This document shows positions 8,648-43,117 of a DNA stretch of 64,000 nucleotides, piece by piece. How positions within the stretch are numbered: position 1 is the first letter of the stretch; the number at the start of each line of letters is the position of its first letter. The notes below the pieces were generated by a model. That model had not been told where the DNA came from, searched no databases, and was given only the letters and a program-made list of their open reading frames with translations. The position numbers and the translations under genes were made by a program. Where the stretch lies: positions 89,258 to 153,257 of the IMG/VR virus record IMGVR_UViG_3300045921_000484; one strand, given 5' to 3'. This DNA is from a virus (lineage: Duplodnaviria > Heunggongvirae > Uroviricota > Caudoviricetes).

Positions 8648-10099
8648 ATGTCAAAATTTAACACAACATTACCAAAACAGAAAACTTTAACTGAAAACCT
8701 TGCAGGTGGTCAAGCTTATGCTCAATCTGATGAGTTAGCTCTTGTATCATTGTTATTAACATCATTTGTTAATAACCAGTTTTATAGAAGCGCTAAAGGA
8801 TCTTTAGATGAACTTAAAAATCTAGCATCTAAAATAAAAGATAAGGAGTTTGTTGCTAAGGCGGCTATCTATGCTCGTGACCGTTTCGGCATGAGAAGTA
8901 TTACACACGCTCTTGCTGGTGAATTAGCCTCTGAGTTAAATGGTAAGGAATGGGGTAAGAAATTCTATGATAAAGTAGTTGTTCGTGTTGATGATATGAC
9001 TGAGATTCTTTCATATTACCTTGCTTATAAGACTAACAAGGATAATCCAAAATTCCCAAATGCCTTAAAGAAGGGATTTGCTAAGGCTTTTGATAAATTT
9101 GATGGATATCAGTTAGCTAAGTATAGAGGTGAGAATAAGGAAGTAAAACTTGTTGATATTGTTAATATTGTTCACCCAGTTCCTACACAGAGGAACAAAG
9201 AAGCATTGTCTTTACTTATAAAGGGTGAGTTAAAGAATGCTGATACCTGGGAGTCTAAGTTGTCACAAGCTGGTCAAGTAGCTGAGTCTGAGGAAGATTT
9301 AGCATCACTAAAGGCAGATGCTTGGAAGAGTCTAATTTCTGAAAGAAAAATTGGATATTTTGCTTTACTAAAAAATCTTAGAAACATCATTTTTCAGGCA
9401 CCAGATTCGCTACCATCAGCTTGTGAATTACTAACAGATGAAAGATTAATTTCTAAGTCTAGAGTTCTTCCATTTAGATTTGCCACAGCTTATGAAGAAA
9501 TTAGTAAGTTAGGTTCTTCTACTGAGGTTAGAAATGTTCTTGTCGCTATCAATAAGGCATTGGATATTTCAGTTGTTAATGTTCCTATATTTGATGGTGA
9601 TACTCTTGTAGTATTAGACGTATCTGGTTCTATGAGTGGCAAGCCATCCGAAATAGCTTCATTGTTTGGTGCCATCTTAGCTAAGTCTAATAACTGTGAT
9701 GTTATGACATTCTCAACTAACTCACAGTATGTGTCTTACAATCCTATGGATTCTGTAATGACCATTAGAAATGGATTTAAATTTTCTGGCGGTGGTACCA
9801 ACTTTAAATCTATTTTCCAAAATGCTAACAAGAAGTATGATAGATTTATTATTCTATCGGATATGCAATCTTGGATTGGATATAATACTCCCTCTGCTGA
9901 GTTCGCTCAATATAAGAAGAAGTTTAATGCAAATCCGTATGTTTACTCATGGGACCTTGCAGGATTAGGAACATTACAATTTCCAGAAAATAATGTCTTT
10001 GCTTTAGCTGGATTCAGTGATAAAGTATTTGATATTATGAAGCTAATGGAAACTGATAAGAAGGCTCTTTTAAATGAAATTAAAGCTATTCAGTTTTAA
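8648..10099 (+). CDS. rsr: TROVE-domain (Ro60/Rsr-like) protein with C-terminal von Willebrand A domain.
   Basis: N-terminal TROVE-like signature (LAGGQAY....L.SLLL..F.NNQFYRS). vWA MIDAS motif VLDVSGSM (DxSxS) near residue 320. Size 483 aa. Confidence 0.7.
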   Translation: MSKFNTTLPKQKTLTENLAGGQAYAQSDELALVSLLLTSFVNNQFYRSAKGSLDELKNLASKIKDKEFVAKAAIYARDRFGMRSITHALAGELASELNGKEWGKKFYDKVVVRVDDMTEILSYYLAYKTNKDNPKFPNALKKGFAKAFDKFDGYQLAKYRGENKEVKLVDIVNIVHPVPTQRNKEALSLLIKGELKNADTWESKLSQAGQVAESEEDLASLKADAWKSLISERKIGYFALLKNLRNIIFQAPDSLPSACELLTDERLISKSRVLPFRFATAYEEISKLGSSTEVRNVLVAINKALDISVVNVPIFDGDTLVVLDVSGSMSGKPSEIASLFGAILAKSNNCDVMTFSTNSQYVSYNPMDSVMTIRNGFKFSGGGTNFKSIFQNANKKYDRFIILSDMQSWIGYNTPSAEFAQYKKKFNANPYVYSWDLAGLGTLQFPENNVFALAGFSDKVFDIMKLMETDKKALLNEIKAIQF

Positions 10100-10338: not shown

Positions 10339-11172
10339 TCATTTAAATCTTGAATTTCTTATTATTAATTTAACATGTGTTGAGTGTGTAATTTTCACAC
10401 CAAAGTCTTTGAATACCTGTTCTTGTAAGAATGGTAGTATAAAAGTTTCCTCTTTTGTTATCTTATATGAAGATGGTATTTTCTTTTTAAGTGTTTCTAA
10501 AGTAATAGGTAGATAGTTTTCATTTACTTCTCTATTCCAGTTATCTGTGTATTTATATTTCAATAGGAAGTGAACAAATGTTCTATAACTATTTCCTATA
10601 TTTTCCCATCTATCTTCGAATGATGATAGATATCTATTATCTGCTTTCTTTCTTATTTTTTTAACATCCTCTTTGAATTTCTCTATTTCATTTCGGTGCA
10701 TTTGCACAGATGGTATCATATCTCTTATTGTTATCCATTTGAAATCACCACCAAATACTTGATTGTCCCAGAATTTTCTAACTACATTTGGATGTGAATA
10801 TGAATATACCTCATGAACAACTGAACTTAGGTTTAATAACGGACTTCTATATTTAGATACTTCTAATATAACATCACTCCATTTATTTGTTAATAATGCT
10901 TTATCTCCTAATTTATCAGATGCCTTTTTGAGCATTTCACTATCAAGATCATACCCTATTATCTTAACATTTGGTTTTAACATTTGAATCTTTGATAGGA
11001 AAGTACCATTAGCACATCCGAAGTCAACAATTACATCAAAGTCAACATCATTAATGAAGAATAGTTTGTCACTCATCCCTTTTTCCATTTCTGATATGTA
11101 TTTATCATAATTAGAGATAGGTTTCTCACCAACTAACTCTTCTAGGAATAATTCCCAACTAAGTATGTTCAT
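10339..11172 (-). CDS. Class I SAM-dependent methyltransferase (substrate unknown).
   Basis: Motif I VIVDFGCANGTF, motif II-like KIIGYDLD. 277 aa. Confidence 0.6.
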   Translation of the reverse strand: MNILSWELFLEELVGEKPISNYDKYISEMEKGMSDKLFFINDVDFDVIVDFGCANGTFLSKIQMLKPNVKIIGYDLDSEMLKKASDKLGDKALLTNKWSDVILEVSKYRSPLLNLSSVVHEVYSYSHPNVVRKFWDNQVFGGDFKWITIRDMIPSVQMHRNEIEKFKEDVKKIRKKADNRYLSSFEDRWENIGNSYRTFVHFLLKYKYTDNWNREVNENYLPITLETLKKKIPSSYKITKEETFILPFLQEQVFKDFGVKITHSTHVKLIIRNSRFK

Positions 11173-12024: not shown

Positions 12025-12744
12025 ATGTTAATCAATGGTGATTGCTTCAATTATGTTAAAACGATACCAGATAACTCAGTCGATTTAATTTTAATAGATC
12101 CACCTTATTTAATCTCAAAAGAATCCAACTTTAAGAATTATTCAGACAGTGCTAATAAAGAGTTAGTCACAAAGTATGGAGAGTTATCCATAGATTTTGG
12201 AGATTGGGATAAAGTTTATATAGATTGGATATCTTTATTTAAAGAATACAATAGGATATTAAAGGATGGTGGAACACTAATTGTATTTTTTGATATATGG
12301 AAGAGTGGTCTTATAAAAGAGGCAGCTGAGCTAAATAAGTTCAAACAACCAAGAGTTTGTCAGTGGCAAAAGACTAATCCAGTTCCGGTTAATTCTAAAA
12401 AAAATTATTTGTCAAATGCTATTGAGTATTTTTTTACCTTTACTAAGGGTAAGAATCCAACGTTTAACTCGGAGTATGATAATGGTGTTTATAGATATCC
12501 AATTTGTCATGGTAAAGAAAGATTAAATCATCCAACTCAAAAGCCACTTAGATTAATAGTTGATTTAATTAATAAACATTCTAAGCCAGGTGATGTTGTT
12601 TTAGATACATTTGCAGGCAGTGGTACAACGGGACATGCTAGTATATTGACAGGTAGGAATTATATTTTGGTTGAGAAAAGCGAAGAATATTTCAAAATTT
12701 TAGAAGAAAGAATTAAAAATGTGTCAAACAAAAAAGAATTTTAG
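12025..12744 (+). CDS. DNA methyltransferase, beta class (N6-adenine or N4-cytosine).
   Basis: Motif IV LILIDPPY precedes motif I VVLDTFAGSGTTG (the beta-class order D..PPY then FxGxG). 239 aa. Divergent from the 11188(-) gene with a 66-nt intergenic region. Confidence 0.8.
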   Translation: MLINGDCFNYVKTIPDNSVDLILIDPPYLISKESNFKNYSDSANKELVTKYGELSIDFGDWDKVYIDWISLFKEYNRILKDGGTLIVFFDIWKSGLIKEAAELNKFKQPRVCQWQKTNPVPVNSKKNYLSNAIEYFFTFTKGKNPTFNSEYDNGVYRYPICHGKERLNHPTQKPLRLIVDLINKHSKPGDVVLDTFAGSGTTGHASILTGRNYILVEKSEEYFKILEERIKNVSNKKEF

Positions 12745-12774
12745 TAATATATAAAATAAAAATCATAATATAAT

Positions 12775-13176
12775 ATGAGTATTAAAATAAAAAATTCACA
12801 ATTAAATAGCGAGACCATAAAAGCATTAAATTCTCTTATTGAGATGGATATTAATGCTAATGCAGCATTCAGACTAACTAGAATAATTAAAGAATTGTCA
12901 TCTATTGTTGATGACAAAGTTAAGATGGAAAAAAGAATCTTAGATAAGTGGATTCAAAAAGATGAAGAGGGTAACCCGGTTATACCAACTGATGAGTCCG
13001 GCAATGCTATTGATGGTGCTGTGAATATTACAAATCCTGAAGCATTTACTCAAGAAATGAATGACTTGATGTCTGTTGAAATTGATATTCCATATGATAA
13101 GTTGAAGTTTGAAGATTTGAATTTGACAACTGCTAAGGTTAAAGATTTAATTAAATTAGAATTTTTATTTGAATAA
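12775..13176 (+). CDS. Hypothetical protein.
   Basis: 133-aa ORF, clean frame. Confidence 0.45.
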   Translation: MSIKIKNSQLNSETIKALNSLIEMDINANAAFRLTRIIKELSSIVDDKVKMEKRILDKWIQKDEEGNPVIPTDESGNAIDGAVNITNPEAFTQEMNDLMSVEIDIPYDKLKFEDLNLTTAKVKDLIKLEFLFE

Positions 13177-13285
13177 GTTGAAGTTGAAAAACCTGGATTT
13201 TTAACATTTTTTTTACTAAAAATCCTACTTATGAAACCAGATGATAGATGAGATAGTTCTCACCATCATTCTGATAGATTAGATT

Positions 13286-13318
13286 AAAAAAGTCCGATAA
13301 TTATATCGGACTTTTTTA
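13286..13318 (+). terminator. Intrinsic terminator.
   Basis: AGTCCGATA-attA-TATCGGACT then T6. Confidence 0.7.
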
Positions 13319-13365
13319 TTTACTCAATATATATTTTAATATATATCTAAAATAGATTGTTATAG

Positions 13366-14877
13366 ATGCCTACTACATATAGCATATTTGATAATACACC
13401 TTACGCCGCTAATAGACTTGAAGATATACAAGATGTACTTCTTCAGTTACCCGATAATCAACAGAAAGAGATTAATCCAAAGGATATCAGGGATGCTATC
13501 TATTCTATTTGGGAAAATGCTATATTTAAAATAACCAGCGGATCAATATCTACAATTGAATATATTGGAATTGATAAAGATGATATCTATAATAAGATTT
13601 TTATAGGTAAGAAGAATTTATTAGGAAATAATGTAATGGATAATGTATTATTATCTTGGACTCAAAGTGACACTGATATATTTTTCTTTAATAATAAGTC
13701 GGATTCAAATTTATCACAGCAATATACTAAAATATCTATACTGGCCGGTACTAATAGTTTATTATACGGTAGTGCGCCATATATAAAATCAAGGACGGCT
13801 ATAGGACCAACATTCTCAAATATTTTACAATTAGATATTGGTAATAACTCCGGAGATGTTAATATTTATTCATCTACAAATAGAGTTTATATAAATAATA
13901 TTGGATTTCCAACAATTTCTGAAACTGGATTATCCGCATCTAATGGGTATTTATTGGTATATGATTCAGTTAGCGGTAATTTGTATTGGAGTATGAATAT
14001 ATTTGCTACATCTAGTGTTGGTAGTACATCTTCAATTACATCCATATTAGGTAATCCGGTTCTTATTAATGGTAGTCCTATAGAACTAACCGATAATAGA
14101 CCAATTATATCACCAATTGGAAGTGTGAAATATGGTAAGACATTTACAAATCAAGGTATAGTTGAGGTTGTTAGAGATATGTTATATACTTATATACCAC
14201 CATCCTGTTCATTATCTGTTAATCCATCTGTAGCTGAGAAAGGAAATCCTAGTATTAATATTCAGGTTGGCTGGACTATTTATAAGAGATCTGACCCTAT
14301 CATATCAGCTATTTTTACAAGTGGTAATGTTATTGGATTTACAACACCGGCTCCTATAAATACACCCGGTTCCTCTATCATATCATCACCCCCATTTGTT
14401 ACTGGAATCGCTCCTGTTGGATTTACAACAAACTATGTATTCTCTATAACTGATAATGGTGCTTCTAATGGTAATATCCCAACGACTGCTACTGCATCAG
14501 TTACTATGAATTTGGTGTATCCATATTTCTGGGGAGTTAGTCCTGTAAATGCGGTTAATGCTTCACAAGTTAACTCTATATTAGGATCACTTACTAAGTC
14601 AGTTACACTTAAATCTAATAAAGAGGCTACACTTTCTGGAATTGGATATATTTATTTTGCTTACCCTGTTGCTTCTGGTGGTCCTACATATGGATATTTA
14701 AGTAATATTTATGATGAAAATGGTGCTACTGTGTCTTCATATACTTATTCTATATATAGCGGGCCAGGACTAACATCACCAAATAACTATTGGTCGAATA
14801 TACCTTATTATGTTTATAAGATAGGTCCTGTTACGGTCGGGCATCCTAATCCAGTTAATTGGACATTTAACTATTAA
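13366..14877 (+). CDS. Fibre/receptor-binding-like structural protein, paralogue 1 of 3.
   Basis: 503 aa, G/S/T/N-rich. N-terminal 60 aa alignable with the 14915 ORF (MPTTYSI..LPDN..I.PKD.RDA..S.WE...FK). Confidence 0.55.
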   Translation: MPTTYSIFDNTPYAANRLEDIQDVLLQLPDNQQKEINPKDIRDAIYSIWENAIFKITSGSISTIEYIGIDKDDIYNKIFIGKKNLLGNNVMDNVLLSWTQSDTDIFFFNNKSDSNLSQQYTKISILAGTNSLLYGSAPYIKSRTAIGPTFSNILQLDIGNNSGDVNIYSSTNRVYINNIGFPTISETGLSASNGYLLVYDSVSGNLYWSMNIFATSSVGSTSSITSILGNPVLINGSPIELTDNRPIISPIGSVKYGKTFTNQGIVEVVRDMLYTYIPPSCSLSVNPSVAEKGNPSINIQVGWTIYKRSDPIISAIFTSGNVIGFTTPAPINTPGSSIISSPPFVTGIAPVGFTTNYVFSITDNGASNGNIPTTATASVTMNLVYPYFWGVSPVNAVNASQVNSILGSLTKSVTLKSNKEATLSGIGYIYFAYPVASGGPTYGYLSNIYDENGATVSSYTYSIYSGPGLTSPNNYWSNIPYYVYKIGPVTVGHPNPVNWTFNY

Positions 14878-14914
14878 TAATTTAATATATATAGTGAAGA
14901 AAAAAAATATCTAA

Positions 14915-16516
14915 ATGCCAGCTACTTACAGTATAAATAATAATACAGTATATGAGTCACTTAGGGTGGCTAATGTAACAGATGCCCTTTATTTATTGCC
15001 TGATAATACATTTAAGTTAATATCTCCAAAAGATGTTAGAGATGCTGTTTTTTCCGCTTGGGAATCATCAGTCTTTAAACAAACAACAGGATCATATTCT
15101 ATTGAATATATCGGTCTTGATAGGGATATTAAGCAAAAGATGTATTTTGGTAAGAAGAAGATAGGTGGATTGGATGTATTAAATAATACTATATTAAATT
15201 ATAACTTTAATGATACAGATATTTTCTTTTATAACAATAAACCTGGTGTAACACCAAGCAATACTAAGATATCATTTTTAGCAGGTACCGAATCATATTT
15301 ATATCAAGTAGCTCCATATTTTAATGCGTATAGCACAACTAATTCAACTATAAATCTCGATATAGTAAATCAAACTGGTGATATTATTTTAGATAGTTAT
15401 ACCGGTCGTATTTCTATAAATAATGTCATTTTTCCTACTAAATTACAAACTGCAGCAGCATCAAATGGTCAGATATTAAAATATTATAATGGATCTCTTG
15501 TTTGGGATGATAATACAATTAGTTTAGCTAATATTGGTAATACATCATCAGTTACTAACATATTAGGTAGTCCTGTTCAAATAAATGGCAATGATATGGA
15601 ATTAACAGATGTTAATCCAATAATTGCTACATTTGGTCATATATATACAGGTCAAACATTTAGTCAGGCTCCCGTTGTCGAGGTTGTTAGACAAATGTTA
15701 TATCCTTATTTACCACCAACTTGTGAGTTAATGGTTGACATAGGTAATGGGTTTACATATTCTCAGGTTGCTGAGAAGGGATCTATCACTAGTTCAGCAT
15801 ATGTTGATGTTTACTGGTCTATAACTAAGAAGAGTGATCCGGTTGTAAGTGGAACAAGCATTGATATTACTGGTTACTCATTTACTCCTATAACAATACC
15901 AGGTTTAACAACAAGTTCGGGTATTGCTACTGGAAATTTACATCCAAGTGGAGCATTTAATAGTTCCGTTAGTCCATTTAATCAGAAATATACATTGATA
16001 ATACAGGATACTGGAGATACAAACAAACCTTTATCAACAACCATGAGTTATATTGGTGGTCCTAATCCCAGTACTGTAACAGCATCTGCTTCTATTGACT
16101 TTGTTTTTCCATTTTTCTATGGTATGAGTAGTTATAATGTTAATACGATTAATGGTTCGATAGATATGCCTTTTGTACTACCTTCTCTTAATAAATCTGT
16201 TGAGAAGTTTGTTGTAAATGGAACGTCTAGTAAATCATTTATGATTTCTGGTACTAACAGTTATATATATTTTTGTGTACCAGCTTTATCTGGATATGCT
16301 ACTGTTAGTCAAATACTAGATAATAATGGATTTGATATAACTGGATCGTTTGTTGAAGTGAAACAATTTATCATATTTCCATCTTTTGCTATTATTAACG
16401 CAACAATTAGTTCACCTAGTGGATTTTGGTCGAACAAACCGTATTACATTTATAAATTTGGACCAACAACTGTTCCTGTTAGCTCATCACCATGGCAATT
16501 AAAATTTAATATATAA
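14915..16516 (+). CDS. Fibre/receptor-binding-like structural protein, paralogue 2 of 3.
   Basis: 533 aa. Shares N-terminal and several internal blocks (ILG.PV.ING...ELTD.NPII, VEVVR.MLY.Y.PP.C.L.V) with 13366. Confidence 0.55.
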   Translation: MPATYSINNNTVYESLRVANVTDALYLLPDNTFKLISPKDVRDAVFSAWESSVFKQTTGSYSIEYIGLDRDIKQKMYFGKKKIGGLDVLNNTILNYNFNDTDIFFYNNKPGVTPSNTKISFLAGTESYLYQVAPYFNAYSTTNSTINLDIVNQTGDIILDSYTGRISINNVIFPTKLQTAAASNGQILKYYNGSLVWDDNTISLANIGNTSSVTNILGSPVQINGNDMELTDVNPIIATFGHIYTGQTFSQAPVVEVVRQMLYPYLPPTCELMVDIGNGFTYSQVAEKGSITSSAYVDVYWSITKKSDPVVSGTSIDITGYSFTPITIPGLTTSSGIATGNLHPSGAFNSSVSPFNQKYTLIIQDTGDTNKPLSTTMSYIGGPNPSTVTASASIDFVFPFFYGMSSYNVNTINGSIDMPFVLPSLNKSVEKFVVNGTSSKSFMISGTNSYIYFCVPALSGYATVSQILDNNGFDITGSFVEVKQFIIFPSFAIINATISSPSGFWSNKPYYIYKFGPTTVPVSSSPWQLKFNI

Positions 16517-16520
16517 TTAT

Positions 16521-18281
16521 ATGGCATATACAATATATGATGGATTTAACCTTAATTTTACAGCACCTATTGATTATAGGATGACAGCAGCTAACGCCGC
16601 TGCTAGAACTTCTATTACCTGGAAGTATGATGGTATGAAGGTTTTTCAACTGGATAATAGATTGACATATATCTGGAATTCGAGTTCATCTACATGGTCA
16701 ATTGAAACTACTATAAGTGGCACCGGATCTACTAATTATATTCCAAGGGTTATTTCTACATCACCATACCTAACTTATGGTAATTCAGCTATATATGATA
16801 ATGGGTTGGGACCTGCTTCTGGATCTGCTGTTGGTATAAATACAAATAATCCAAAAGAATATTTACAAATAGGTTCTTATCCTGTTGCATTTCCTGGTCA
16901 ATCATTACCATTGGTATTTCATAAAGGCGGTAATACTCGTATTGGTTATAATTGGTATTTTAGTAACGGCAATCAATATTTTGATAATACCAAGGGTTCT
17001 TCACTAATTCAGTTTGGTGGGTATGCTGATCCAACATTTGATGGTTCTATTACTCTAAGTACTAGAGAGCCAAATGCCGTTAATTTTAATGCTAGTTCCT
17101 TTTATATGAAGAATGGAAGGGTTATGATTGGTAATGTATCTACTGTTCAGATTGATGGGTTGGGAACATATGGTCCTATATCTTTAGTTTCTGGAGATTC
17201 ATCGGGTGACTTGCCTCTTTTTGCTGTTATGAATACATCAAATGCTGCTTCGGGATCTAAAAACTCGATGATATCTTTCTGGGGTAGAAGTGTTGGGGGT
17301 GTCAATCAAAGAGTTGCTGATATATATTCAAGGGTAAGAGGAGTCGGGGGTGATCTTGGTAATTGGACTAAATCTTCTTTGGCTTTTAGTATTATTCCTA
17401 GGGATTTGAGTGGTAATACAATTGCAATTAATGGTGTTAGTTCTTGGAATGCACATACTTTTGAGTTAAGGGAGGATGGTCAATTTTATATAGGTCCGAA
17501 TTCTCCGGCTGGTTCACCATCTAATATTTCAGGATCATCCCTTTTATTTCCTAATGCTACACCTAAATTAGATATTATTAGTGGTCTATCTAGTCTTGGA
17601 TACAATGAATGTATAGTTTTAAGACATCCAACTATATCTCCATCCGCTGTCACTAGAAGATTGGGTTTTATTATGAAGTTGAGTAGTGAGATGCCTAGTG
17701 AATATAATAAGATGGGTGGTATTATACTTGAATCAACACAAACATCAGCTACTAATCCATCGTTATCACTTGTTTTATCTGAGCAAAAAAGATTTAATAT
17801 TCTTAATAATGGTAACATCACTATTTCCGGATATGATATGTCAATGATCGAAAATGGATCCAAAATAGGTTTTAATAATGGTAAGATAGGATCATACTCA
17901 ACTGGTATTAGCTTGGCTCAATCATCATGTACTGATCTTTCTTATCAAATTCTTACGGGACTATTTTCCCTCACCATTACGGTTGAGGCGATCTTTGTTG
18001 TTAGTGCTTCAACTGGTAGAGGAGGTTATCAAGGTAGTAGATGTACTAAGATTATTCAATCATTACGAGCTGATAATTTTGGTAATGTTAGTTTAATTGG
18101 TTCTCCTACTATATTACACGATAGAGTTTCACCTGGTATTAACGCTCCTAATGTGCCATCTATTGCAACTCCTACTATAAATGCTTCTGGTGGTAATATT
18201 AACCTAGTGGTTAATGTTTGTGCAACATCAAATCCTGCATCATTTGCATGTACATATTATTATAATTATACAATTACATAA
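16521..18281 (+). CDS. Fibre-like structural protein (G/S/T/N-rich).
   Basis: 586 aa with low-complexity beta-rich composition. Starts 5 nt after the previous gene. Confidence 0.5.
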   Translation: MAYTIYDGFNLNFTAPIDYRMTAANAAARTSITWKYDGMKVFQLDNRLTYIWNSSSSTWSIETTISGTGSTNYIPRVISTSPYLTYGNSAIYDNGLGPASGSAVGINTNNPKEYLQIGSYPVAFPGQSLPLVFHKGGNTRIGYNWYFSNGNQYFDNTKGSSLIQFGGYADPTFDGSITLSTREPNAVNFNASSFYMKNGRVMIGNVSTVQIDGLGTYGPISLVSGDSSGDLPLFAVMNTSNAASGSKNSMISFWGRSVGGVNQRVADIYSRVRGVGGDLGNWTKSSLAFSIIPRDLSGNTIAINGVSSWNAHTFELREDGQFYIGPNSPAGSPSNISGSSLLFPNATPKLDIISGLSSLGYNECIVLRHPTISPSAVTRRLGFIMKLSSEMPSEYNKMGGIILESTQTSATNPSLSLVLSEQKRFNILNNGNITISGYDMSMIENGSKIGFNNGKIGSYSTGISLAQSSCTDLSYQILTGLFSLTITVEAIFVVSASTGRGGYQGSRCTKIIQSLRADNFGNVSLIGSPTILHDRVSPGINAPNVPSIATPTINASGGNINLVVNVCATSNPASFACTYYYNYTIT

Positions 18282-18847
18282 TGAATAGATTTAAGAGTTA
18301 TAATTTAAAATTCTATGACAATAGAATAGTAGTGGATGGTATGGAACACAACCCTGATACTTTTGTAATGATAGATTGGGAGAACCCATTAATGAAAAAA
18401 CATGCTGATGTTGTTACACAATTTGGTGGTGATATACTAGAAATCGGATTTGGAATGGGAATATCCGCCAACTACATACAATCTAATAGTATCAAATCAC
18501 ATACAATAGTTGAAATACATCCTCAAATTTTACCAAAACTATATGAGTGGTCAAAGGATAAACCAAATGTTAGAGTAATTGAAGGTGATTGGATTGATAA
18601 ATTGGATGAGATATCCTCGATGAAGTATGATGGTATTTTTTTTGATACACATATGGATCCAAATGCGCCCAAGTTTAGGAATCTTATTGTTGATAAGTGT
18701 CTTAAAGAAGGTGGTATTTTTACTTGGTTTGACCTTTTTGGTAGAGATTTTTTTGGATATGATAGCATCAATATCATTGATGTTGATATTGAATATTATG
18801 GTACATTTAAATGTCCTTATATCTTCTCAAACCACCAATTGAAATAA
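18281..18847 (+). CDS. Guanidinoacetate N-methyltransferase / Rmt2-family SAM methyltransferase.
   Basis: 188 aa. WENPLMKKHA....GGDILEIGFGMGISANYIQ...H.IVEI......L..W......V....G.W.D......YDGIFFDT aligns motif-for-motif with GAMT (WETPYMHALA..GGRVLEVGFGMAIAASKVQ..FDGILYDT). ATG overlaps the TAA of the upstream fibre gene (TAATG). Confidence 0.65.
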   Translation: MNRFKSYNLKFYDNRIVVDGMEHNPDTFVMIDWENPLMKKHADVVTQFGGDILEIGFGMGISANYIQSNSIKSHTIVEIHPQILPKLYEWSKDKPNVRVIEGDWIDKLDEISSMKYDGIFFDTHMDPNAPKFRNLIVDKCLKEGGIFTWFDLFGRDFFGYDSINIIDVDIEYYGTFKCPYIFSNHQLK

Positions 18848-19491
18848 ATGTAGTTATCACCTACTAGATTATAGTAGTCATTTTCGTGTTTAATTATAAT
18901 CTTATTGTCATGAGCTCTAATTAGTTCAACCTCAATTCCTTTTTTCATTCTTAATTGTTTACCGGTTTCAGTTGAATAGCATATTATTTCATCATTTAAT
19001 AATTTATACGTTCCTGGTTCAGGTTTTAACCAGCTCTTAATTACTTTGATTATTAATCCTTTAATTTTTATTATCCATTCTTTACTTTGATAAAGGTCAT
19101 AATCTTTGAATACTTCAGATTGGAAATCAGGATTATTCATTATATTCTTAACAACTCCCCAGTATTCCTCATCTCCTATTATAAATGAAACATAAACGTC
19201 GTAGTTTATGTTATTGGATTTAACGATTCTAAGTATTTTCATACTCTTGATATCTTGATCATCAAGAGTGAGTTTATTTCTTAAATTTTTATAAGCTTTT
19301 GTGTCTGATAAATTATATAAAATGTCATTTATTCTTGACATTGCTTGTCTTATGGCATCTTGATGCTTATCAAAGGCATTTATAGATAATTGTCTATCAT
19401 CAACATGCGTAGAAGGCTGAACGCTATCTGGATTTAATCTTTGCATGTTAAATTCTGTAAATTCCAATATTAGTCTATTCTTGCGTTTCAT
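18817..19491 (-). CDS. Hypothetical protein.
   Basis: 224-aa ORF, convergent with the methyltransferase. Confidence 0.5.
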   Translation of the reverse strand: MKRKNRLILEFTEFNMQRLNPDSVQPSTHVDDRQLSINAFDKHQDAIRQAMSRINDILYNLSDTKAYKNLRNKLTLDDQDIKSMKILRIVKSNNINYDVYVSFIIGDEEYWGVVKNIMNNPDFQSEVFKDYDLYQSKEWIIKIKGLIIKVIKSWLKPEPGTYKLLNDEIICYSTETGKQLRMKKGIEVELIRAHDNKIIIKHENDYYNLVGDNYIYFNWWFEKI

Positions 19492-19526
19492 AATTAAATA
19501 TATATATTAAAATCTACAACTATAAA

Positions 19527-19832
19527 ATGAAAATAAGAAGATTTAATGAAGATGAAGAGGTTGATATTTCATCTGAAAGAATAGATGAGATAATCAATGA
19601 ATTAAAAGATTTTGCATTACTTATGAGTGATAAGTCTAAATCAGTTGAATCGTTGTTGAATGAGTTTAGTAATTTTAAAAGTCAATCGAAAAAAGGTAAT
19701 GATCAAATTGATGACTCTATTTTTTCACTACAAGTAGCTAAAAAGGATATTGATGATTGTATTGATAAGATAGACACTGTAATCAATAATCTTGTTGATT
19801 ATAATAATAATGGTAGAAAATTTTTATATTGA
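19527..19832 (+). CDS. Small hypothetical protein. Its 3' part is duplicated as a fragment at 22813-22890.
   Basis: 101 aa. nt 19722-19795 are about 85% identical to 22813-22890. Confidence 0.45.
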   Translation: MKIRRFNEDEEVDISSERIDEIINELKDFALLMSDKSKSVESLLNEFSNFKSQSKKGNDQIDDSIFSLQVAKKDIDDCIDKIDTVINNLVDYNNNGRKFLY

Positions 19833-19913
19833 TCGTCAAATTTATAACACAAGTTTTTTTGTGATGAATTTGAAAAAAATAACCCTATTTTATGTTAATA
19901 ATTTATTAAAAAA

Positions 19914-20681
19914 ATGAAACACCTAATTAAATATAGATTATTTGAATCCGCCGGAGATATTGAATCTATCTGCAATAAATATAGTATACAAAATTTTACC
20001 ATAAATAAAGATGGATCTATTAATGTAGATGGTGATGTTGATCTTTCTGGTAAAAGATTAAATAAGCTACCTATTAAATTTAAAAATGTTACCGGTAATT
20101 TCTACTGTTCCAATAACAACCTAACCTCACTAGAAGGCGGTCCTAAATCGGTTGGTGGTAGTTTCTACTGCTCCTATAACAACCTATCTTCACTAGAAGG
20201 GGGTCCTAAATCGGTTGGTGGCGATTTCAAATTTTTCAATAACAACCTAACTTCACTAGAAGGCAGTCCTAAATCGGTTGGTGGTGATTTTGACTGTTGC
20301 TATAACAACCTAACTTCACTAGAAGGGAGTCCTAAATCGGTTGGTGGTGATTTTGACTGTTGCTATAACAACCTAATTTCACTAGAAGGGTGTCCTAAAT
20401 CGGTTGGTGGAAATTTCTACTGTGACAATAACAAATTAATTTCACTAGAAGGCTCACCGGAATCAATCGGTAGAGATTTCTACTGTAGTGATAATCCAGT
20501 AGAACAGATATGGAATTTATTTAAGGATAAGGATAAAATTGAATTATTTAATGATATGGATATTATTCAAGGTGATTCAATTATTCTTAATAGATTAATC
20601 TATTTTCTAGACCAAATAGGCAAGCCTAAAAGTGAAGAAGAATTAAGAAGGGTTATTAAGGATTATAAATTTATCCTTTAA
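19914..20681 (+). CDS. LRR-like 20-aa tandem-repeat protein, paralogue 1 of 4.
   Basis: 255 aa. Conserved N-terminus MKHLIKYRLFES..DIESICNKY. Seven or so 60-nt repeats (LTSLEGGPKSVGGDFxCxYNN fitting LxxLxLxxNxLxxL). Conserved C-terminus IWNLFKDKDKIELFNDMDIIQGDSIILNRLI.FLDQIGKPK. Confidence 0.65.
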   Translation: MKHLIKYRLFESAGDIESICNKYSIQNFTINKDGSINVDGDVDLSGKRLNKLPIKFKNVTGNFYCSNNNLTSLEGGPKSVGGSFYCSYNNLSSLEGGPKSVGGDFKFFNNNLTSLEGSPKSVGGDFDCCYNNLTSLEGSPKSVGGDFDCCYNNLISLEGCPKSVGGNFYCDNNKLISLEGSPESIGRDFYCSDNPVEQIWNLFKDKDKIELFNDMDIIQGDSIILNRLIYFLDQIGKPKSEEELRRVIKDYKFIL

Positions 20682-20691
20682 TATATACATT

Positions 20692-21585
20692 ATGAAACAC
20701 CTAATTCAATATAGATTATTTGAATCCAACAAGGATATTGAATCTATCTGCAATAAATATGGTATAGAGAACTGGACTATAAATGAAGATGGATCTATTG
20801 ACGTAAATGGTGATGTTGATCTATCTTATGAAGAATTAGATAAACTACCCATTAAATTTAGAAATGTTACCGGTAATTTCAATTGTTACTATAACAATCT
20901 AACCTATCTAGAAGGTTTTCCCGAATCAGTTGGTGGTCATTTTATCTGTTCCTTTAACAAACTAACCTCACTAGAAGGTGGTCCTAAATCGGTTGGTGGT
21001 AATTTTATCTGTTCCTATAACAATCTAACTTCACTAGAAGGGGCTCCTAAATCGGTTGGTGGTGATTTTATCTGTTCCCATACCGACCTAACCTCACTAG
21101 AAGGCGGTCCTGAATCGGTTGGTGGTGGTTTCGATTGTTGCAATAATTATCTAACTTCACTAGAAGGGTGTCCTAAATCGGTTGGTAGAGATTTCTGGTG
21201 TTACAATAATAAACTAACTTCACTAGAAGGCGGTCCTAAATCGGTTGGTAGAGATTTCTGGTGTTACAATAATAAACTAACATCACTAGAAGGGGGTCCT
21301 AAATGGGTTGGTCGCGATTTCTGGTGTTCTAATAACAACCTAACTTCACTAGAAGGCTATCCCGAATCAGTTGGTGGTCTTTTTAACTGTGAATATAACC
21401 CAGTCTATCAAATATGGAAATTATTTAAGGATAAAGATAAAATAGAATTATTTAATGATATGGATATTATTCAAGGTGATTCCATTATTCTTAATAGATT
21501 AATCGATTTTCTAGACCAAATAGGAAATCCTAAAACGGAAAGTGAATTGAGAAAGTTAATTAAGGATTATAGATTTGTTATTTAA
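20692..21585 (+). CDS. LRR-like 20-aa tandem-repeat protein, paralogue 2 of 4.
   Basis: 297 aa, nine or so repeats, same N- and C-terminal modules as 19914. Only 10 nt from the previous paralogue. Confidence 0.65.
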   Translation: MKHLIQYRLFESNKDIESICNKYGIENWTINEDGSIDVNGDVDLSYEELDKLPIKFRNVTGNFNCYYNNLTYLEGFPESVGGHFICSFNKLTSLEGGPKSVGGNFICSYNNLTSLEGAPKSVGGDFICSHTDLTSLEGGPESVGGGFDCCNNYLTSLEGCPKSVGRDFWCYNNKLTSLEGGPKSVGRDFWCYNNKLTSLEGGPKWVGRDFWCSNNNLTSLEGYPESVGGLFNCEYNPVYQIWKLFKDKDKIELFNDMDIIQGDSIILNRLIDFLDQIGNPKTESELRKLIKDYRFVI

Positions 21586-41852: not shown

Positions 41853-41885
41853 AATATCCAAATGAGATTTGCAAAATTTCAATAA
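41853..41885. repeat. Right arm of the inverted repeat. Also overlaps the 3' end of LRR paralogue 41879..42790(-).
   Basis: See 41645-41680. Confidence 0.6.
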
Positions 41886-42790
41886 AATCTATAATCCTTA
41901 ATAACCCTTCTTAATTCTTCTTCCTTTTTAGGTTTTCCTATTTCATTTAGGAAATCGATTAATCCATCAAGAATAATTGAATCTCCTTGAATAATGTCCA
42001 TATCATTAAATAATTCTATTTTATCCTTATCTCTAAATAAATTCCATATTTGATATACTGGATTATTAATACAGTAGAAATACCCACCAATTGATTCCGG
42101 TGCGCCTTCTAAAGAGTTTAGGTTGTTATTGCAACAGTCGAAATGACCACCAACCGATTTAGGACCTCCTTTTAGTGAGGTTAGTTTGTTAAAGGAACAT
42201 ATGAAATGACCACCAACCGATTTAGGACCGCCTTCTAGTGAAGTTAGGTTGTTATTGTAACAGTAGAAATCCCTACCAACCGATTTAGGACCTCCTTCTA
42301 GTGATGTTAGTTTATTATTGTAACAATAGAAACTACCACCAACTGATTCAGGACCGCCTTCTAATGAGGTTAGGTCGTTATGGGAACAGATGAAATAACC
42401 ACCAACAGATTTGGGACTGCCTTGTAACGAAGTTAGATTGTTATAGGAACAAATAAAATTACCACCAACCGATTTAGGACCTCCTTCTAGTGATGTTAGT
42501 TTATTATTGTAACAGTAGAAACCACCACCAACTGATTCAGGACCGCCTTCTAGTGAAGTTAGTTTGTTATTGTTGCAGTAAAAATTACCGGTAACATTTC
42601 TAAATTTAAGTGGTAGTTTATCTAATTTTTCATAGGATAGATTAACATTACCATCTACATCAATAGATCCATCTTTATTTATAGTAAAATTTTTTATACC
42701 ATATTTCTCGCAGATAGATTCAATATCCTGATTAGATTCAAATAATCTATATTGAATTAGGTGTTTCATAATGTGTTTATTACTTTTCAT
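41879..42790 (-). CDS. LRR-like 20-aa tandem-repeat protein, paralogue 3 of 4.
   Basis: 303 aa, nine or so repeats. N-terminus MKSNKHIMKHLIQYRLFES, so it carries the small-gene N-terminal module plus the family N-terminus. C-terminal module conserved. Confidence 0.65.
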   Translation of the reverse strand: MKSNKHIMKHLIQYRLFESNQDIESICEKYGIKNFTINKDGSIDVDGNVNLSYEKLDKLPLKFRNVTGNFYCNNNKLTSLEGGPESVGGGFYCYNNKLTSLEGGPKSVGGNFICSYNNLTSLQGSPKSVGGYFICSHNDLTSLEGGPESVGGSFYCYNNKLTSLEGGPKSVGRDFYCYNNNLTSLEGGPKSVGGHFICSFNKLTSLKGGPKSVGGHFDCCNNNLNSLEGAPESIGGYFYCINNPVYQIWNLFRDKDKIELFNDMDIIQGDSIILDGLIDFLNEIGKPKKEEELRRVIKDYRFY

Positions 42791-43117
42791 GTTCGTAAAT
42801 ATTTTTATGTATATATTAAAAAAAATCTAAATATTTCCTCGGAAATTAACTTCCGTGTTAGAAAATTTTATAAAACCAGCCTCTAAAAATATACCCCGAT
42901 TATCTTAACCTTTTTTAAAGTTGAGTATAATCAGGGTAAGTACAAAACGTTATACACAATACTACTTTTGTGTTTCAAATTTATACTTTATCAAAATCAA
43001 ATTTTATCAAATTCTTACTTTTCATCAATTCTGTTTTAACTCTAACCAATCATCACATGGTATGGTTGGTTTAATTCTATTTGTATTTAAAAAAAGAAAA
43101 ATGAGATTTACAAAATT

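What the first reader, a model, noticed from the sequence alone, without database searches (positions are those of the whole stretch)
16521..18847. GAMT/Rmt2-family guanidino N-methyltransferase translationally coupled to the fibre gene cluster
The 188-aa ORF at 18281 aligns motif-for-motif with guanidinoacetate N-methyltransferase. Compare WENPLM...GGDILEIGFGMGISANYIQ...YDGIFFDT with WETPYM...GGRVLEVGFGMAIAASKVQ...FDGILYDT.

Established knowledge: this small family methylates guanidino groups (guanidinoacetate, or arginine delta-N in fungal Rmt2).

Its ATG overlaps the stop of the third of three consecutive fibre-like paralogues (TAATG at 18279-18283). It is the last gene of that + strand block before a convergent gene. 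This placement suggests co-expression with, and possibly arginine methylation of, a tail fibre or receptor-binding protein, or a small-molecule role. I am not aware of such an enzyme being a described phage function.
Basis: partly seen in the sequence, partly recalled or inferred. Interest (0 to 1): 0.6.

Follow-up and report, generated by a model that had tools for sequence, protein, structure and literature searches.

The report
Phage guanidino methyltransferase linked to tail fibres
A huge phage carries a small enzyme of the creatine-synthesis/arginine-methylating family directly after a tail-fibre-like gene. The enzyme comes and goes with that fibre's tip domain and holds the same position in dozens of unrelated phages, which suggests that it methylates the fibre rather than making creatine as published surveys assume.

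Summary
The ORF is real: 18281..18847 (+), 188 aa. Its ATG overlaps the stop of the upstream 586-aa gene (TAATG). It is the last + strand gene before a convergent gene.

It belongs to the GAMT/Rmt2 family:
- phmmer against rat and human GAMT gives E = 7e-15.
- It carries PF27704.
- The AF2 model (pLDDT 94) matches GAMT best.
- The SAM motif and the guanidino-binding pair E34/D122 (GAMT E45/D134) are invariant.

One correction: only the 503- and 533-aa ORFs are paralogues. The 586-aa protein is unrelated to them. It is a modular fibre or spike protein whose N-terminus is shared with proteins carrying a Peptidase_S74 domain.

New evidence links the enzyme to fibres:
- In eight syntenic relatives, the methyltransferase is present exactly when the fibre carries this C-terminal domain (four with, four without).
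- In 48 methyltransferase lineages from viral contigs, the gene sits tightly downstream of a same-strand gene in 41 of 43. A fibre-like gene lies at −1 or −2 in 36 of 43.
- dN/dS is 0.08–0.15 for the enzyme and about 0.55–0.59 for the fibre tip.

Best reading (about 0.45): a phage enzyme that methylates arginine on its cognate fibre. Published work lists viral "GAMT" as a creatine auxiliary metabolic gene; the gene context argues against that. No biochemistry exists.

The parts
18281..18847 (+). 188-aa stand-alone GAMT/Rmt2-family SAM-dependent methyltransferase. Motif I LEIGFGMG is aa 53-60 (nt 18437-18460). E34 is nt 18380-18382 and corresponds to GAMT E45. D122 is nt 18644-18646 and corresponds to GAMT D134.
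   Evidence: ORF. phmmer against GAMT, E = 7e-15. PF27704 on the identical protein P0001. Residues invariant in 36 phage homologues. AF2 model pLDDT 94.4 with GAMT as best PDB match (E = 1.6e-13, TM 0.78). dN/dS 0.08-0.15.
18279..18283 (+). TAATG stop/start overlap between the fibre-like gene and the methyltransferase gene
   Evidence: Sequence. The same tight or overlapping junction with the upstream same-strand gene occurs in 41 of 43 methyltransferase lineages.
16521..18281 (+). 586-aa modular tail-fibre/spike-like protein, not a paralogue of the two upstream ORFs
   Evidence: No similarity to the 503/533-aa ORFs. N-terminal 207 aa are 51% identical (E = 2e-57) to P0284, which carries a Peptidase_S74 intramolecular-chaperone domain. 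It contains the fibre motif VGINTNNPKEYLQIG seen in other phage fibres. The weak Foldseek top hits are phage tailspikes and tail fibres, but the model is poor (pLDDT 53).
17826..18278 (+). C-terminal all-beta domain (aa 436-586) of the fibre-like protein. This is the part that co-varies with the methyltransferase.
   Evidence: This domain occurs only in the homologues whose contigs also carry the methyltransferase (P0268/L171, P0269/L174, L177). L168, L172/173, L178 and L179 have an unrelated C-terminus and no methyltransferase. It is the confident part of the AF2 model (pLDDT 74-87). dN/dS 0.55-0.59.
18015..18041 (+). GRGGYQGSR (aa 499-507), a candidate methylation site containing the only two arginines (R500, R507) invariant in the C-terminal domain
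   Evidence: Conservation across the four methyltransferase-linked fibres. This is speculative, because only four sequences were available.
13366..14877 (+). 503-aa protein of unknown function, the first of two paralogues at the head of the + strand block
   Evidence: 41% identical to the 533-aa ORF. No Pfam or PHROG hit.
14915..16516 (+). 533-aa paralogue of the 503-aa protein, conserved in huge-phage genomes
   Evidence: 39% identity to LR756502, 33% to LR745206.
18817..19491 (-). Convergent 224-aa gene that marks the right edge of the fibre-tip + methyltransferase cassette. Its 3' end is read in antisense as the last 8-9 codons of the methyltransferase.
   Evidence: ORF. The gene is conserved in all relatives with or without the methyltransferase. 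The only trace of the methyltransferase in genomes lacking it is the 8-9-codon match that lies on this gene's end.

Best explanation
The 188-aa protein is an active SAM-dependent N-methyltransferase of the GAMT/Rmt2 family. It most likely acts on an arginine side chain of a virion adsorption protein, probably the C-terminal (distal) beta-domain of the 586-aa fibre-like protein encoded just upstream.

Proposed sequence of events:
1. The + strand block 13366-18847 is expressed late. The methyltransferase is translated by coupling to the fibre gene through the TAATG overlap. The overlap is shown; the coupling is inferred.
2. SAM is bound by motif I (E54-I-G56-F57-G58), E78 and D103/W104. The residues are shown to be conserved; their function is inferred from GAMT.
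3. E34 and D122, the equivalents of GAMT E45 and D134, hold a guanidino group. D122 abstracts the proton for methyl transfer. This step is inferred by homology.
4. The guanidino group belongs to an arginine of the newly made fibre tip. Candidates are R500 and R507 in GRGGYQGSR. This step is inferred from co-variation, and the site itself is speculative.
5. Methylation tunes folding, stability, protease resistance or receptor binding of the fibre. This step is speculative.

The fibre tip and the methyltransferase are exchanged between related phages as one cassette, as fibre tips are exchanged with their assembly chaperones.
For: Family and catalytic apparatus:
- phmmer against GAMT gives E = 7e-15.
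- The identical database protein carries PF27704.
- E34, E54, G56, F57, G58, E78, W104 and D122 are invariant in 36 phage homologues.
- The AF2 model has pLDDT 94.4 and GAMT is its best PDB match.
- dN/dS is 0.08-0.15, indicating purifying selection.

Fibre link within this phage lineage:
- Four genomes with this fibre C-terminus carry the methyltransferase (window, L171, L174, L177).
- Four distinct syntenic genomes with another C-terminus lack it and show no remnant of it (L168, L172/173, L178, L179).

Fibre link across phages:
- Among 48 methyltransferase lineages, the upstream gene is on the same strand in 42 of 43 and within 20 nt in 41.
- It overlaps the methyltransferase in 24.
- A fibre-like gene lies at −1 or −2 in 36 of 43. 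In the background, 1.3% of genes are long and rich in G, S, T, N and A.
- Those upstream genes hit the PHROG families tail fiber and collagen-like minor tail.
- The marine loci sit beside terminase and portal genes.
- An unrelated 634-kb phage has three fibre-like genes, then the methyltransferase, then a convergent gene.

Other protein-modifying enzymes co-locate: a 2OG-Fe(II) oxygenase after a collagen-like S74 fibre (L075) and glycosyltransferases (L001).

The protein is closer to proteins with the Rmt2 architecture (ankyrin repeats plus methyltransferase) than to GAMT: 100 versus 69 bits.

Precedent in the literature:
- Methylation of a mycobacteriophage tail protein is needed for adsorption (PMC13445384).
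- Lysine and arginine methylation is detected on Cellulophaga phage virion proteins (PMC13288928).
Against: - There is no biochemical or proteomic evidence for any substrate.
- Co-variation of adjacent DNA can be simple linkage inside a swapped cassette.
- The window's fibre shares no sequence with the fibre family found upstream in most other phages, so no common substrate motif exists.
- Exceptions to the placement occur. The methyltransferase follows an RFC-like clamp-loader gene in L017/L049, and the upstream genes are not fibre-like in L047, L071 and L084.
- GAMT itself is a small-molecule enzyme, and its carboxylate contacts are backbone-mediated, so sequence cannot exclude a small substrate.
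- The 80 viral loci are those most similar to the query out of at least 533, so they are not an unbiased sample.
Confidence: 0.45

Rival explanations
1. It is an auxiliary metabolic gene. The enzyme would methylate a free small guanidino compound in the infected cell, either guanidinoacetate to creatine or another guanidino metabolite. This is how published virome surveys read it.
For: The closest solved structures are true GAMTs, and the guanidino-binding pair is conserved. PMC11360552 reports viral GAMT (K00542) as 85-fold virus-enriched and interprets it as creatine synthesis. PMC13100340 lists it as an expressed AMG. Bacterial relatives are tailoring domains fused to NRPS modules, so they act on small or tethered molecules.
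Against: The gene sits inside adsorption and morphogenesis modules, is tightly coupled to fibre genes in most lineages, and co-varies with a fibre tip. No amidinotransferase or other pathway partner turned up among the 27 window ORFs scanned, which included every ORF of 300 aa or more except two. From general knowledge, bacteria are not known to use a creatine/phosphocreatine system. Identity to GAMT is only 32%, and the protein lacks about 50 residues of GAMT.
Confidence: 0.2
2. It methylates a host protein rather than a virion protein. An example would be a ribosomal protein, since yeast Rmt2 methylates Rpl12. A cell-envelope protein is another possibility. The effect would be to reprogramme the cell.
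For: The protein is more similar to proteins with the Rmt2 architecture than to GAMT. Host protein methylation rises in infected Cellulophaga cells (PMC13288928).
Against: This reading does not explain the position after fibre genes or the co-variation with a fibre tip. Host-takeover genes are usually early genes that are not embedded in structural modules (general knowledge).
Confidence: 0.12
3. It methylates a non-protein decoration of the virion or of the host surface. An example would be an amidino- or guanidino-bearing sugar on a glycosylated fibre.
For: In L001 the methyltransferase lies next to GT1, GT25 and GT9-like glycosyltransferases and an FkbM-type methyltransferase.
Against: No glycosyltransferase lies next to it in the window or in most loci. 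No such glycan is known for these phages.
Confidence: 0.08
4. It serves as a fibre assembly factor or chaperone built on a methyltransferase fold, and catalysis is irrelevant. Alternatively, it is merely a passenger gene at a recombination hot spot.
For: It occupies the position of tail-fibre assembly genes and, like them, co-varies with the fibre tip.
Against: All SAM-binding and catalytic residues are invariant across 36 divergent homologues, and dN/dS is about 0.1. That pattern is what an active enzyme would show. Recurrence across unrelated fibre families argues against a passenger gene.
Confidence: 0.07

Closest known systems
Guanidinoacetate N-methyltransferase (GAMT, EC 2.1.1.2; PDB 1xcj, 1khh, 3orh)
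   Same: It is the closest solved relative by sequence (E = 7e-15, 32% identity over 131 aa) and by fold (TM 0.78). It shares the class I SAM-methyltransferase core, motif I (L-E-[IV]-G-F-G-M) and the guanidino-binding/catalytic pair E45/D134, which correspond to E34/D122.
   Different: The phage protein has 188 aa against 236. The sequence alignment stops at residue 152, and the N-terminal lid and C-terminal third are not alignable. It is phage-encoded, no pathway partner (AGAT) was seen, and it lies in a fibre module rather than a metabolic context.
Rmt2, fungal and plant protein arginine delta-N-methyltransferase (RMT2 domain)
   Same: It belongs to the same family. Database proteins with the Rmt2 architecture (ankyrin repeats plus a C-terminal methyltransferase domain; P0236, P0251) score higher against the phage protein than GAMT does, at 100 versus 69 bits. 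A protein-arginine substrate is what the gene context suggests.
   Different: The phage protein has no ankyrin region. It is a stand-alone catalytic domain. The Rmt2 substrate is a ribosomal protein. No orthology was established, because no tree was built.
Viral 'GAMT' auxiliary metabolic gene (K00542) of marine virome surveys; UniProt A0A8D9CBY1 'Putative guanidinoacetate methyltransferase [uncultured marine phage]'
   Same: This appears to be the same phage clade. The BFVD best match has TM 0.83 and 35% identity. There are at least 533 IMG/VR loci and about 1,900 database clusters. PMC11360552 notes strong virus enrichment.
   Different: Those reports assign a creatine-synthesis role from the KEGG label alone. 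Here the gene neighbourhood and the co-variation with the fibre tip point to a role in the virion adsorption module.
Tail-fibre tip and assembly-chaperone cassettes (lambda and P2 Tfa, T4 gp38 type)
   Same: The genomic logic is the same: a gene immediately downstream of the fibre gene, tightly coupled to it, and exchanged together with the fibre's C-terminal domain.
   Different: There is no sequence similarity to any PHROG tail-assembly family. The protein is an apparently active enzyme, not a chaperone fold.
Host MepM-dependent methylation of mycobacteriophage tail protein Gp34 (PMC13445384)
   Same: Methylation of a tail adsorption protein affects binding to the host.
   Different: That enzyme is host-encoded and was placed in a different methyltransferase group. 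The modified residues reported are Glu and Ser, not Arg. I could not test its relationship to this family.

Membership tests
GAMT/Rmt2 family (Pfam PF27704 GuanidinoAc_N-MeTrfase) | Significant sequence or profile match to the family | tested here: met
   phmmer against PDB GAMT chains gives E = 6.9e-15 to 1.2e-13. The identical database protein P0001 and all 120 listed homologues carry PF27704. The local Pfam copy lacks this model and gives only sub-threshold generic methyltransferase hits.
GAMT/Rmt2 family (Pfam PF27704 GuanidinoAc_N-MeTrfase) | Class I Rossmann-type SAM-methyltransferase fold with GAMT as nearest structure | tested here: met
   The AF2 model has pLDDT 94.4 and pTM 0.91. In Foldseek against the PDB, the top five matches are GAMT (E = 1.6e-13, TM 0.78), and spermidine synthases follow at E of about 1e-9.
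GAMT/Rmt2 family (Pfam PF27704 GuanidinoAc_N-MeTrfase) | SAM-binding motif I (E-x-G-x-G) and an acidic residue after strand 2 | tested here: met
   L53, E54, G56, F57, G58 and E78 are invariant in 36 phage homologues and align with GAMT L64-E65-V-G67-F-G69 and E89.
GAMT/Rmt2 family (Pfam PF27704 GuanidinoAc_N-MeTrfase) | Guanidino-binding/catalytic pair (GAMT E45 and D134) | tested here: met
   E34 and D122 align with E45 and D134 and are invariant in the phage clade. The roles of E45 and D134 are taken from my knowledge of the GAMT ternary-complex structures (1xcj).
GAMT/Rmt2 family (Pfam PF27704 GuanidinoAc_N-MeTrfase) | Methyl transfer from SAM to a guanidino nitrogen | not testable with these tools
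   This needs an enzyme assay.
GAMT proper (creatine synthesis) | Full-length correspondence with animal GAMT (about 236 aa, N-terminal lid, C-terminal substrate loop) | tested here: not met
   The protein has 188 aa. The sequence alignment covers query residues 29-152 only, at 32% identity. It scores higher against Rmt2-architecture and NRPS-fused relatives.
GAMT proper (creatine synthesis) | Metabolic context: an amidinotransferase (AGAT) or other pathway partner | tested here: inconclusive
   No amidinotransferase hit appeared among the 27 window ORFs scanned. None appeared among annotated neighbours in other phage loci. Only 64 kb of a genome likely around 600 kb was available.
Rmt2 (protein arginine delta-N-methyltransferase) | N-terminal ankyrin-repeat region followed by the RMT2 catalytic domain | tested here: not met
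   The protein is a stand-alone 188-aa domain. Ankyrin repeats plus the methyltransferase domain occur in P0236 and P0251 but not here.
Rmt2 (protein arginine delta-N-methyltransferase) | Protein arginine as substrate | not testable with these tools
   The only evidence is contextual: coupling to a fibre gene and co-variation with its tip.
Tail-fibre assembly/chaperone cassette | Gene immediately downstream of the fibre gene that co-varies with the fibre C-terminus | tested here: met
   Four genomes carry both the methyltransferase and this C-terminus, and four distinct genomes lack both.
Tail-fibre assembly/chaperone cassette | Homology to known tail-fibre assembly proteins | tested here: not met
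   There is no PHROG hit at E of 0.01 or better.

The most novel reading that the evidence does not exclude
This would be the first virus-encoded protein arginine methyltransferase dedicated to a virion protein in prokaryotic viruses. A stand-alone Rmt2/GAMT-like enzyme would methylate the receptor-binding tip of its cognate tail fibre and travel with that tip as a host-range cassette. It would follow that the ocean's most virus-enriched 'AMG' (viral GAMT) is not metabolic at all but a widespread fibre-modification enzyme.
Probability: 0.4. Interest if true: 0.8.

Novelty: new variant of a known kind. Interest (0 to 1): 0.64.

Why it matters
If the enzyme methylates fibre arginines, it adds a phage-encoded post-translational layer to host recognition. 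Such a layer would be invisible to sequence-based host-range prediction and to fibre engineering.

It would also give a direct genetic handle on two recent observations. Phage virion proteins carry lysine and arginine methylation (PMC13288928). Tail-protein methylation can be essential for adsorption (PMC13445384).

It would further correct a published metabolic interpretation (creatine synthesis, PMC11360552) of one of the most virus-enriched marine 'AMGs'. That is a useful caution for AMG catalogues built from KEGG labels.

The family is large, with at least 533 viral loci and about 1,900 protein clusters. No cultured phage in the GenBank collection carries it; the only hit among GenBank phage records is a metagenomic huge phage. 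The function is therefore open, yet easily testable by co-expressing a fibre with its methyltransferase.

Tried and rejected
- Local Pfam, PHROGs, NCBIfam. None has a model for this family. There were only sub-threshold generic hits (RrnaAD, Methyltransf_25, KsgA, aminopropyltransferase). I rejected these as family assignments because they fall far below the curated cut-offs and GAMT is 10 orders of magnitude better.
- Search of the window for the fibre C-terminal domain and the conserved +1 gene of the marine loci. HMMs of both found nothing in the window. The window's fibre is therefore a different family, and no universal substrate motif can be claimed.
- Promoter and terminator scan of 12600-19900. 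Counts equalled the shuffled expectation, so it was uninformative.
- AF2 of the 586-aa protein. The whole-chain model is poor (pLDDT 53); only aa 20-60 and about 457-586 are usable. The Foldseek hits to phage tailspikes and tail fibres are weak, and I treat them only as supporting evidence.
- Foldseek against afdb50. The library was unavailable.
- Cellular homologues as a possible source or host copy. They are only 30-46% identical and mostly fused to NRPS modules. The exception, a Flavobacteriales MAG contig (L088), has the phage-like gene order and is probably a mis-binned phage contig.
- A carbohydrate-binding (DNRLRE/CBM96-like) identity for the conserved +1 protein. I considered this from its motif, but no library supported it, so I dropped it.
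- No phylogenetic tree was built. 'Closer to Rmt2-like than to GAMT' rests on pairwise scores only.
Full report
**What the window is.** The window comes from a huge phage. Its class I ribonucleotide reductase is 87% identical to that of the 642-kb uncultured phage LR756502. The next best matches are Tenacibaculum and Cellulophaga phages at about 50%. The window also encodes a DnaB-like helicase, a Ro60/TROVE protein, a RecA/UvsX-like protein, an N6/N4 DNA methylase, a GH16 hydrolase, leucine-rich-repeat paralogues and a PhoH with a LAGLIDADG insertion.

**Checking the observation.**
- The ORF 18281..18847 (+) encodes 188 aa.
- The sequence at 18279-18283 is TAATG. The stop of ORF 16521..18281 and the ATG of the 188-aa ORF therefore share one base.
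- The next gene (18817..19491, 224 aa) lies on the − strand and overlaps the 3' end by 31 nt.
- The similarity to guanidinoacetate N-methyltransferase is not a chance motif match. phmmer against all PDB sequences gives E = 6.9e-15 to 1.2e-13 for rat and human GAMT over query residues 29-152, and the next hit has E = 0.04.
- One statement is wrong. The 503- and 533-aa ORFs are paralogues (41% identity, E = 3e-108), but the 586-aa ORF is unrelated to both.

**Family placement.**
- The local Pfam, PHROG and NCBIfam libraries have no model for this family. They give only sub-threshold generic hits, for example RrnaAD at 19.5 bits against a cut-off of 24 and KsgA at 21.5 against 171.
- In the large protein database, the identical protein and all 120 listed homologues carry PF27704, GuanidinoAc_N-MeTrfase.
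- An AF2 model built on 36 homologues is confident (pLDDT 94.4, pTM 0.91). Its five best PDB matches are GAMT structures (E = 1.6e-13, TM 0.78). Spermidine synthases follow four orders of magnitude behind.
- In the alignment of 36 phage-type homologues the invariant residues are M30, E34, M38, L53, E54, G56, F57, G58, T75, E78, W90, W104 and D122.
- By the GAMT alignment, E54-x-G56-F57-G58 is SAM motif I and E78 is the acidic residue after strand 2. E34 and D122 are the equivalents of GAMT E45 and D134. In the GAMT ternary complex (1xcj; my knowledge of that work) those two residues hold the guanidino group and D134 acts as the base.
- The protein is therefore very probably an active guanidino-directed N-methyltransferase.
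- It is not an orthologue of animal GAMT. It has 188 aa against 236, shows 32% identity and 69 bits over 131 residues, and the C-terminal third is not alignable by sequence.
- It scores higher against proteins with the Rmt2 architecture of ankyrin repeats plus a methyltransferase domain (P0251, 100 bits). It also scores higher against bacterial domains fused to the C-terminus of NRPS modules (108-117 bits).

**Who carries it.**
- The family is large. There are 1,908 clusters at E ≤ 0.001 in the 90% database, and 1,598 representatives at 50% identity in an exhaustive HMMER scan.
- The stand-alone type of about 185-200 aa is abundant in viral contigs. At least 533 IMG/VR loci were confirmed.
- Among 50,697 GenBank phage records only one, a 634-kb metagenomic phage, has it. 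No cultured carrier was found.
- In 185,579 species genomes the relatives are only 30-46% identical. They occur in Nitrospira, Acidobacteriota, cyanobacteria and actinomycetes, and many are NRPS-fused.

**The upstream gene is a fibre or spike-type protein.**
- Its first 207 residues are 51% identical (E = 2e-57) to the N-terminus of P0284, a protein carrying a Peptidase_S74 intramolecular-chaperone domain. Several other homologues that share only this N-terminal region also carry S74.
- It contains the motif VGINTNNPKEYLQIG. This resembles the 'VGIGT..P...L.V.G' motif visible in the fibre-like proteins of other loci.
- The AF2 model is poor overall (pLDDT 53). It gives a confident all-beta C-terminal domain (aa ~457-586, pLDDT 74-87). 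The weak Foldseek top hits are phage tailspikes and tail fibres.
- I found no evidence on what the 503/533-aa paralogues are. They are conserved in two other huge-phage genomes.

**Co-variation in the window's own lineage.**
- Eight syntenic relatives were recovered. They share the order DNA methylase, 133 aa, two paralogues, third gene, convergent 224-aa gene.
- In four of them the third protein is homologous to the window's over its full length, and the methyltransferase follows. These are the window, L171, L174 and L177.
- In four distinct others only the first ~430 residues are homologous and the C-terminal ~150 residues are unrelated. There the convergent gene follows directly. These are L168, L172/173, L178 and L179 (alignment).
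- The window's C-terminal domain (aa 436-586) is found only in the homologues from methyltransferase-carrying genomes.
- Genomes without the gene hold no methyltransferase remnant. The only trace is an 8-9-codon match that is really the antisense of the conserved end of the 224-aa gene. This places the right edge of the cassette at about 18820.
- Between the same genome pairs the methyltransferase is under strong purifying selection (dN/dS 0.08-0.15). The fibre tip evolves fast (dN/dS 0.55-0.59), and the fibre N-terminus is intermediate (0.15-0.34).

**The same placement recurs in unrelated phages.**
- I called genes in 87 viral loci and collapsed them to 48 methyltransferase lineages at 80% identity.
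- In 43 lineages an upstream gene is visible. It is on the same strand in 42, within 20 nt in 41, and overlapping in 24.
- A member of a fibre-like cluster lies at −1 or −2 in 36. This cluster has collagen-like G-T-S repeats and often a conserved C-terminal domain ending ..VR[IV][IV]GY..FNPD. By comparison, 1.3% of other genes in these loci are long and rich in G, S, T, N and A.
- Representatives hit the PHROG families 'tail fiber protein', 'collagen like minor tail' and 'minor tail protein'.
- In marine contigs the module lies beside terminase large subunit, portal and a virion structural protein.
- In 34 of 48 lineages a conserved protein of about 236 aa and unknown function follows directly.
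- In the 634-kb phage LR745206, three fibre-like genes (954, 1169 and 762 aa) are followed by the methyltransferase and then convergent genes.
- In a freshwater 111-kb contig, a collagen-repeat protein and three 620-636-aa glycine-rich paralogues precede it. Glycosyltransferases and an FkbM-type methyltransferase follow.
- In L075/76 it lies between a 2,146-aa collagen-like fibre and a 2OG-Fe(II) oxygenase.
- Exceptions exist. L017/L049 have an RFC-like clamp loader upstream, and L047, L071 and L084 lack a fibre-like neighbour.
- The 80 IMG/VR loci among these are the best-scoring of at least 533, so the census is biased toward relatives of the query.

**Interpretation.**
- The best-supported reading is an active guanidino N-methyltransferase whose substrate is an arginine of a virion adsorption protein. 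In this window that protein would be the C-terminal domain of the 586-aa fibre.
- The only arginines invariant in that fast-evolving domain are R500 and R507, inside GRGGYQGSR. This is one of its two most conserved nine-residue stretches. With four sequences, this is only a lead.
- What is shown: the family, the intact catalytic residues, purifying selection, the overlap, the co-variation and the recurrent placement.
- What is inferred: translational coupling, late expression, a protein substrate and any effect on adsorption.
- Adjacent DNA inside a swapped cassette co-varies by linkage alone. The stronger argument is therefore the independent recurrence next to different fibre families.

**Comparison with the literature.**
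- Viral GAMT (K00542) was reported as the most virus-enriched marine auxiliary metabolic gene, at 85-fold, and was interpreted as creatine synthesis (PMC11360552).
- It is also listed as an expressed AMG of P2-like viruses (PMC13100340).
- UniProt/BFVD holds a 'Putative guanidinoacetate methyltransferase [uncultured marine phage]', which is the best viral structural match (TM 0.83).
- The gene's presence in phages is therefore not new. The metabolic reading rests on the label only, and the gene context found here argues against it.
- Two 2026 papers make a fibre-modifying role timely. Host MepM-dependent methylation of a mycobacteriophage tail protein is required for adsorption (PMC13445384). 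Lysine and arginine methylation was detected on virion proteins of Cellulophaga phages, whose authors note that none of those phages is known to encode a methyltransferase for it (PMC13288928).
- I found no description of a phage-encoded GAMT/Rmt2-type enzyme linked to fibres. My searches cover open-access text only.

**Verdict.** The family assignment is supported, and the fibre link is strengthened but unproven. I rate it a new variant of a known kind, meaning a known enzyme family in a new, conserved, virion-associated context. Interest is about 0.64. My confidence is about 0.8 that it is an active guanidino methyltransferase and about 0.45 that its substrate is the fibre or another adsorption protein.

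Noticed in passing
L092:874-6597, L099:1048-6585, L164:3997-6597 (Nitrospira defluvii, Brasilonema, Streptomyces genomes): In cellular genomes the GAMT-like domain is often the C-terminal domain of very large proteins. In the two checked, these are NRPS modules: AMP-binding, PP-binding, Condensation, AMP-binding, then the methyltransferase domain in Nitrospira, and A-T-MT in Streptomyces. This suggests guanidino N-methylation as a tailoring step on tethered substrates.
   Followed up: partly
L075:10643-11248 and L076 (IMG/VR marine contigs): A 2OG-Fe(II) oxygenase (PF13640, phrog_61) lies directly after the methyltransferase. Upstream is a fibre of about 2,150-2,240 aa with long collagen-like G-x-x repeats, whose C-terminal sequence looks to me like an S74-type intramolecular chaperone (not scanned against Pfam). 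This may be a fibre-modification cluster (hydroxylase plus methyltransferase).
   Followed up: partly
L001:8545-14049 (freshwater 111-kb contig): Convergent to the methyltransferase lie a 758-aa protein with a GT9-like domain, a Methyltransf_21 (FkbM-type) protein and a GT1/GT25 protein, next to collagen-like and glycine-rich fibre paralogues. This hints at virion glycosylation.
   Followed up: partly
viral loci L012, L020, L041, L079 and others, gene +1 after the methyltransferase: A conserved protein of about 220-260 aa follows the methyltransferase directly in 34 of 48 lineages. Its consensus begins MPT.N.TA.LQG and contains ..YR.FLFFD.S.VPG.ITAA.L.VYG. It has no Pfam, PHROG or NCBIfam hit. 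It could be an alternative substrate or partner.
   Followed up: partly
window 18817-18847: The last 8-9 codons of the methyltransferase (..IFSNHQLK) are encoded on the antisense of the conserved 3' end of the convergent 224-aa gene. The same nucleotides are present in relatives that lack the methyltransferase, so the ORF borrows its end from the neighbour.
   Followed up: yes
window 58831-60666 (−): A 611-aa PhoH-like protein has LAGLIDADG domains (PF14528, PF14527) in front of the PhoH domain. This is probably an intein or homing-endonuclease insertion.
   Followed up: no
window 8648-10099 (+): The phage encodes a Ro60/TROVE protein with a vWA domain. I did not look for a partner Y-RNA-like gene.
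   Followed up: no
window 19914-21585 (+) and 41879-43942 (−): Two tandem paralogues (255 and 297 aa) share the N-terminus MKHLIKYRLFES and contain repeats NNLTSLEG.PKSVGG.F. Two further leucine-rich-repeat proteins lie on the − strand. Function is unknown.
   Followed up: no
window 10339-11172 (−) and 12025-12744 (+): Two further methyltransferases flank the block. One is a 277-aa class I methyltransferase with weak generic Pfam hits. The other is an N6/N4 DNA methylase. Both are conserved in the syntenic relatives, whether or not the GAMT-like gene is present.
   Followed up: partly
P0122 (421 aa) and P0143 (492 aa), database proteins: These are fusions of a GAMT-like domain with a second methyltransferase-type domain: spermine/spermidine synthase in P0122 and a PCMT-like domain in P0143.
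   Followed up: no
L017 and L049 (IMG/VR contigs): These are exceptions to the fibre rule. Here the methyltransferase overlaps the end of a gene whose 308-aa product looks to me like an RFC-type clamp loader (judged from its sequence only). It therefore sits in a replication context.
   Followed up: no
L088 (NZWA01000020.1, Flavobacteriales MAG, 11.9-kb contig): This is the best 'cellular' hit (46% identity). It has the phage-type gene order of methyltransferase, a 233-aa gene, then an 899-aa gene, and is probably a phage contig binned into a MAG. If so, it hints at a Flavobacteriales host for that clade.
   Followed up: no
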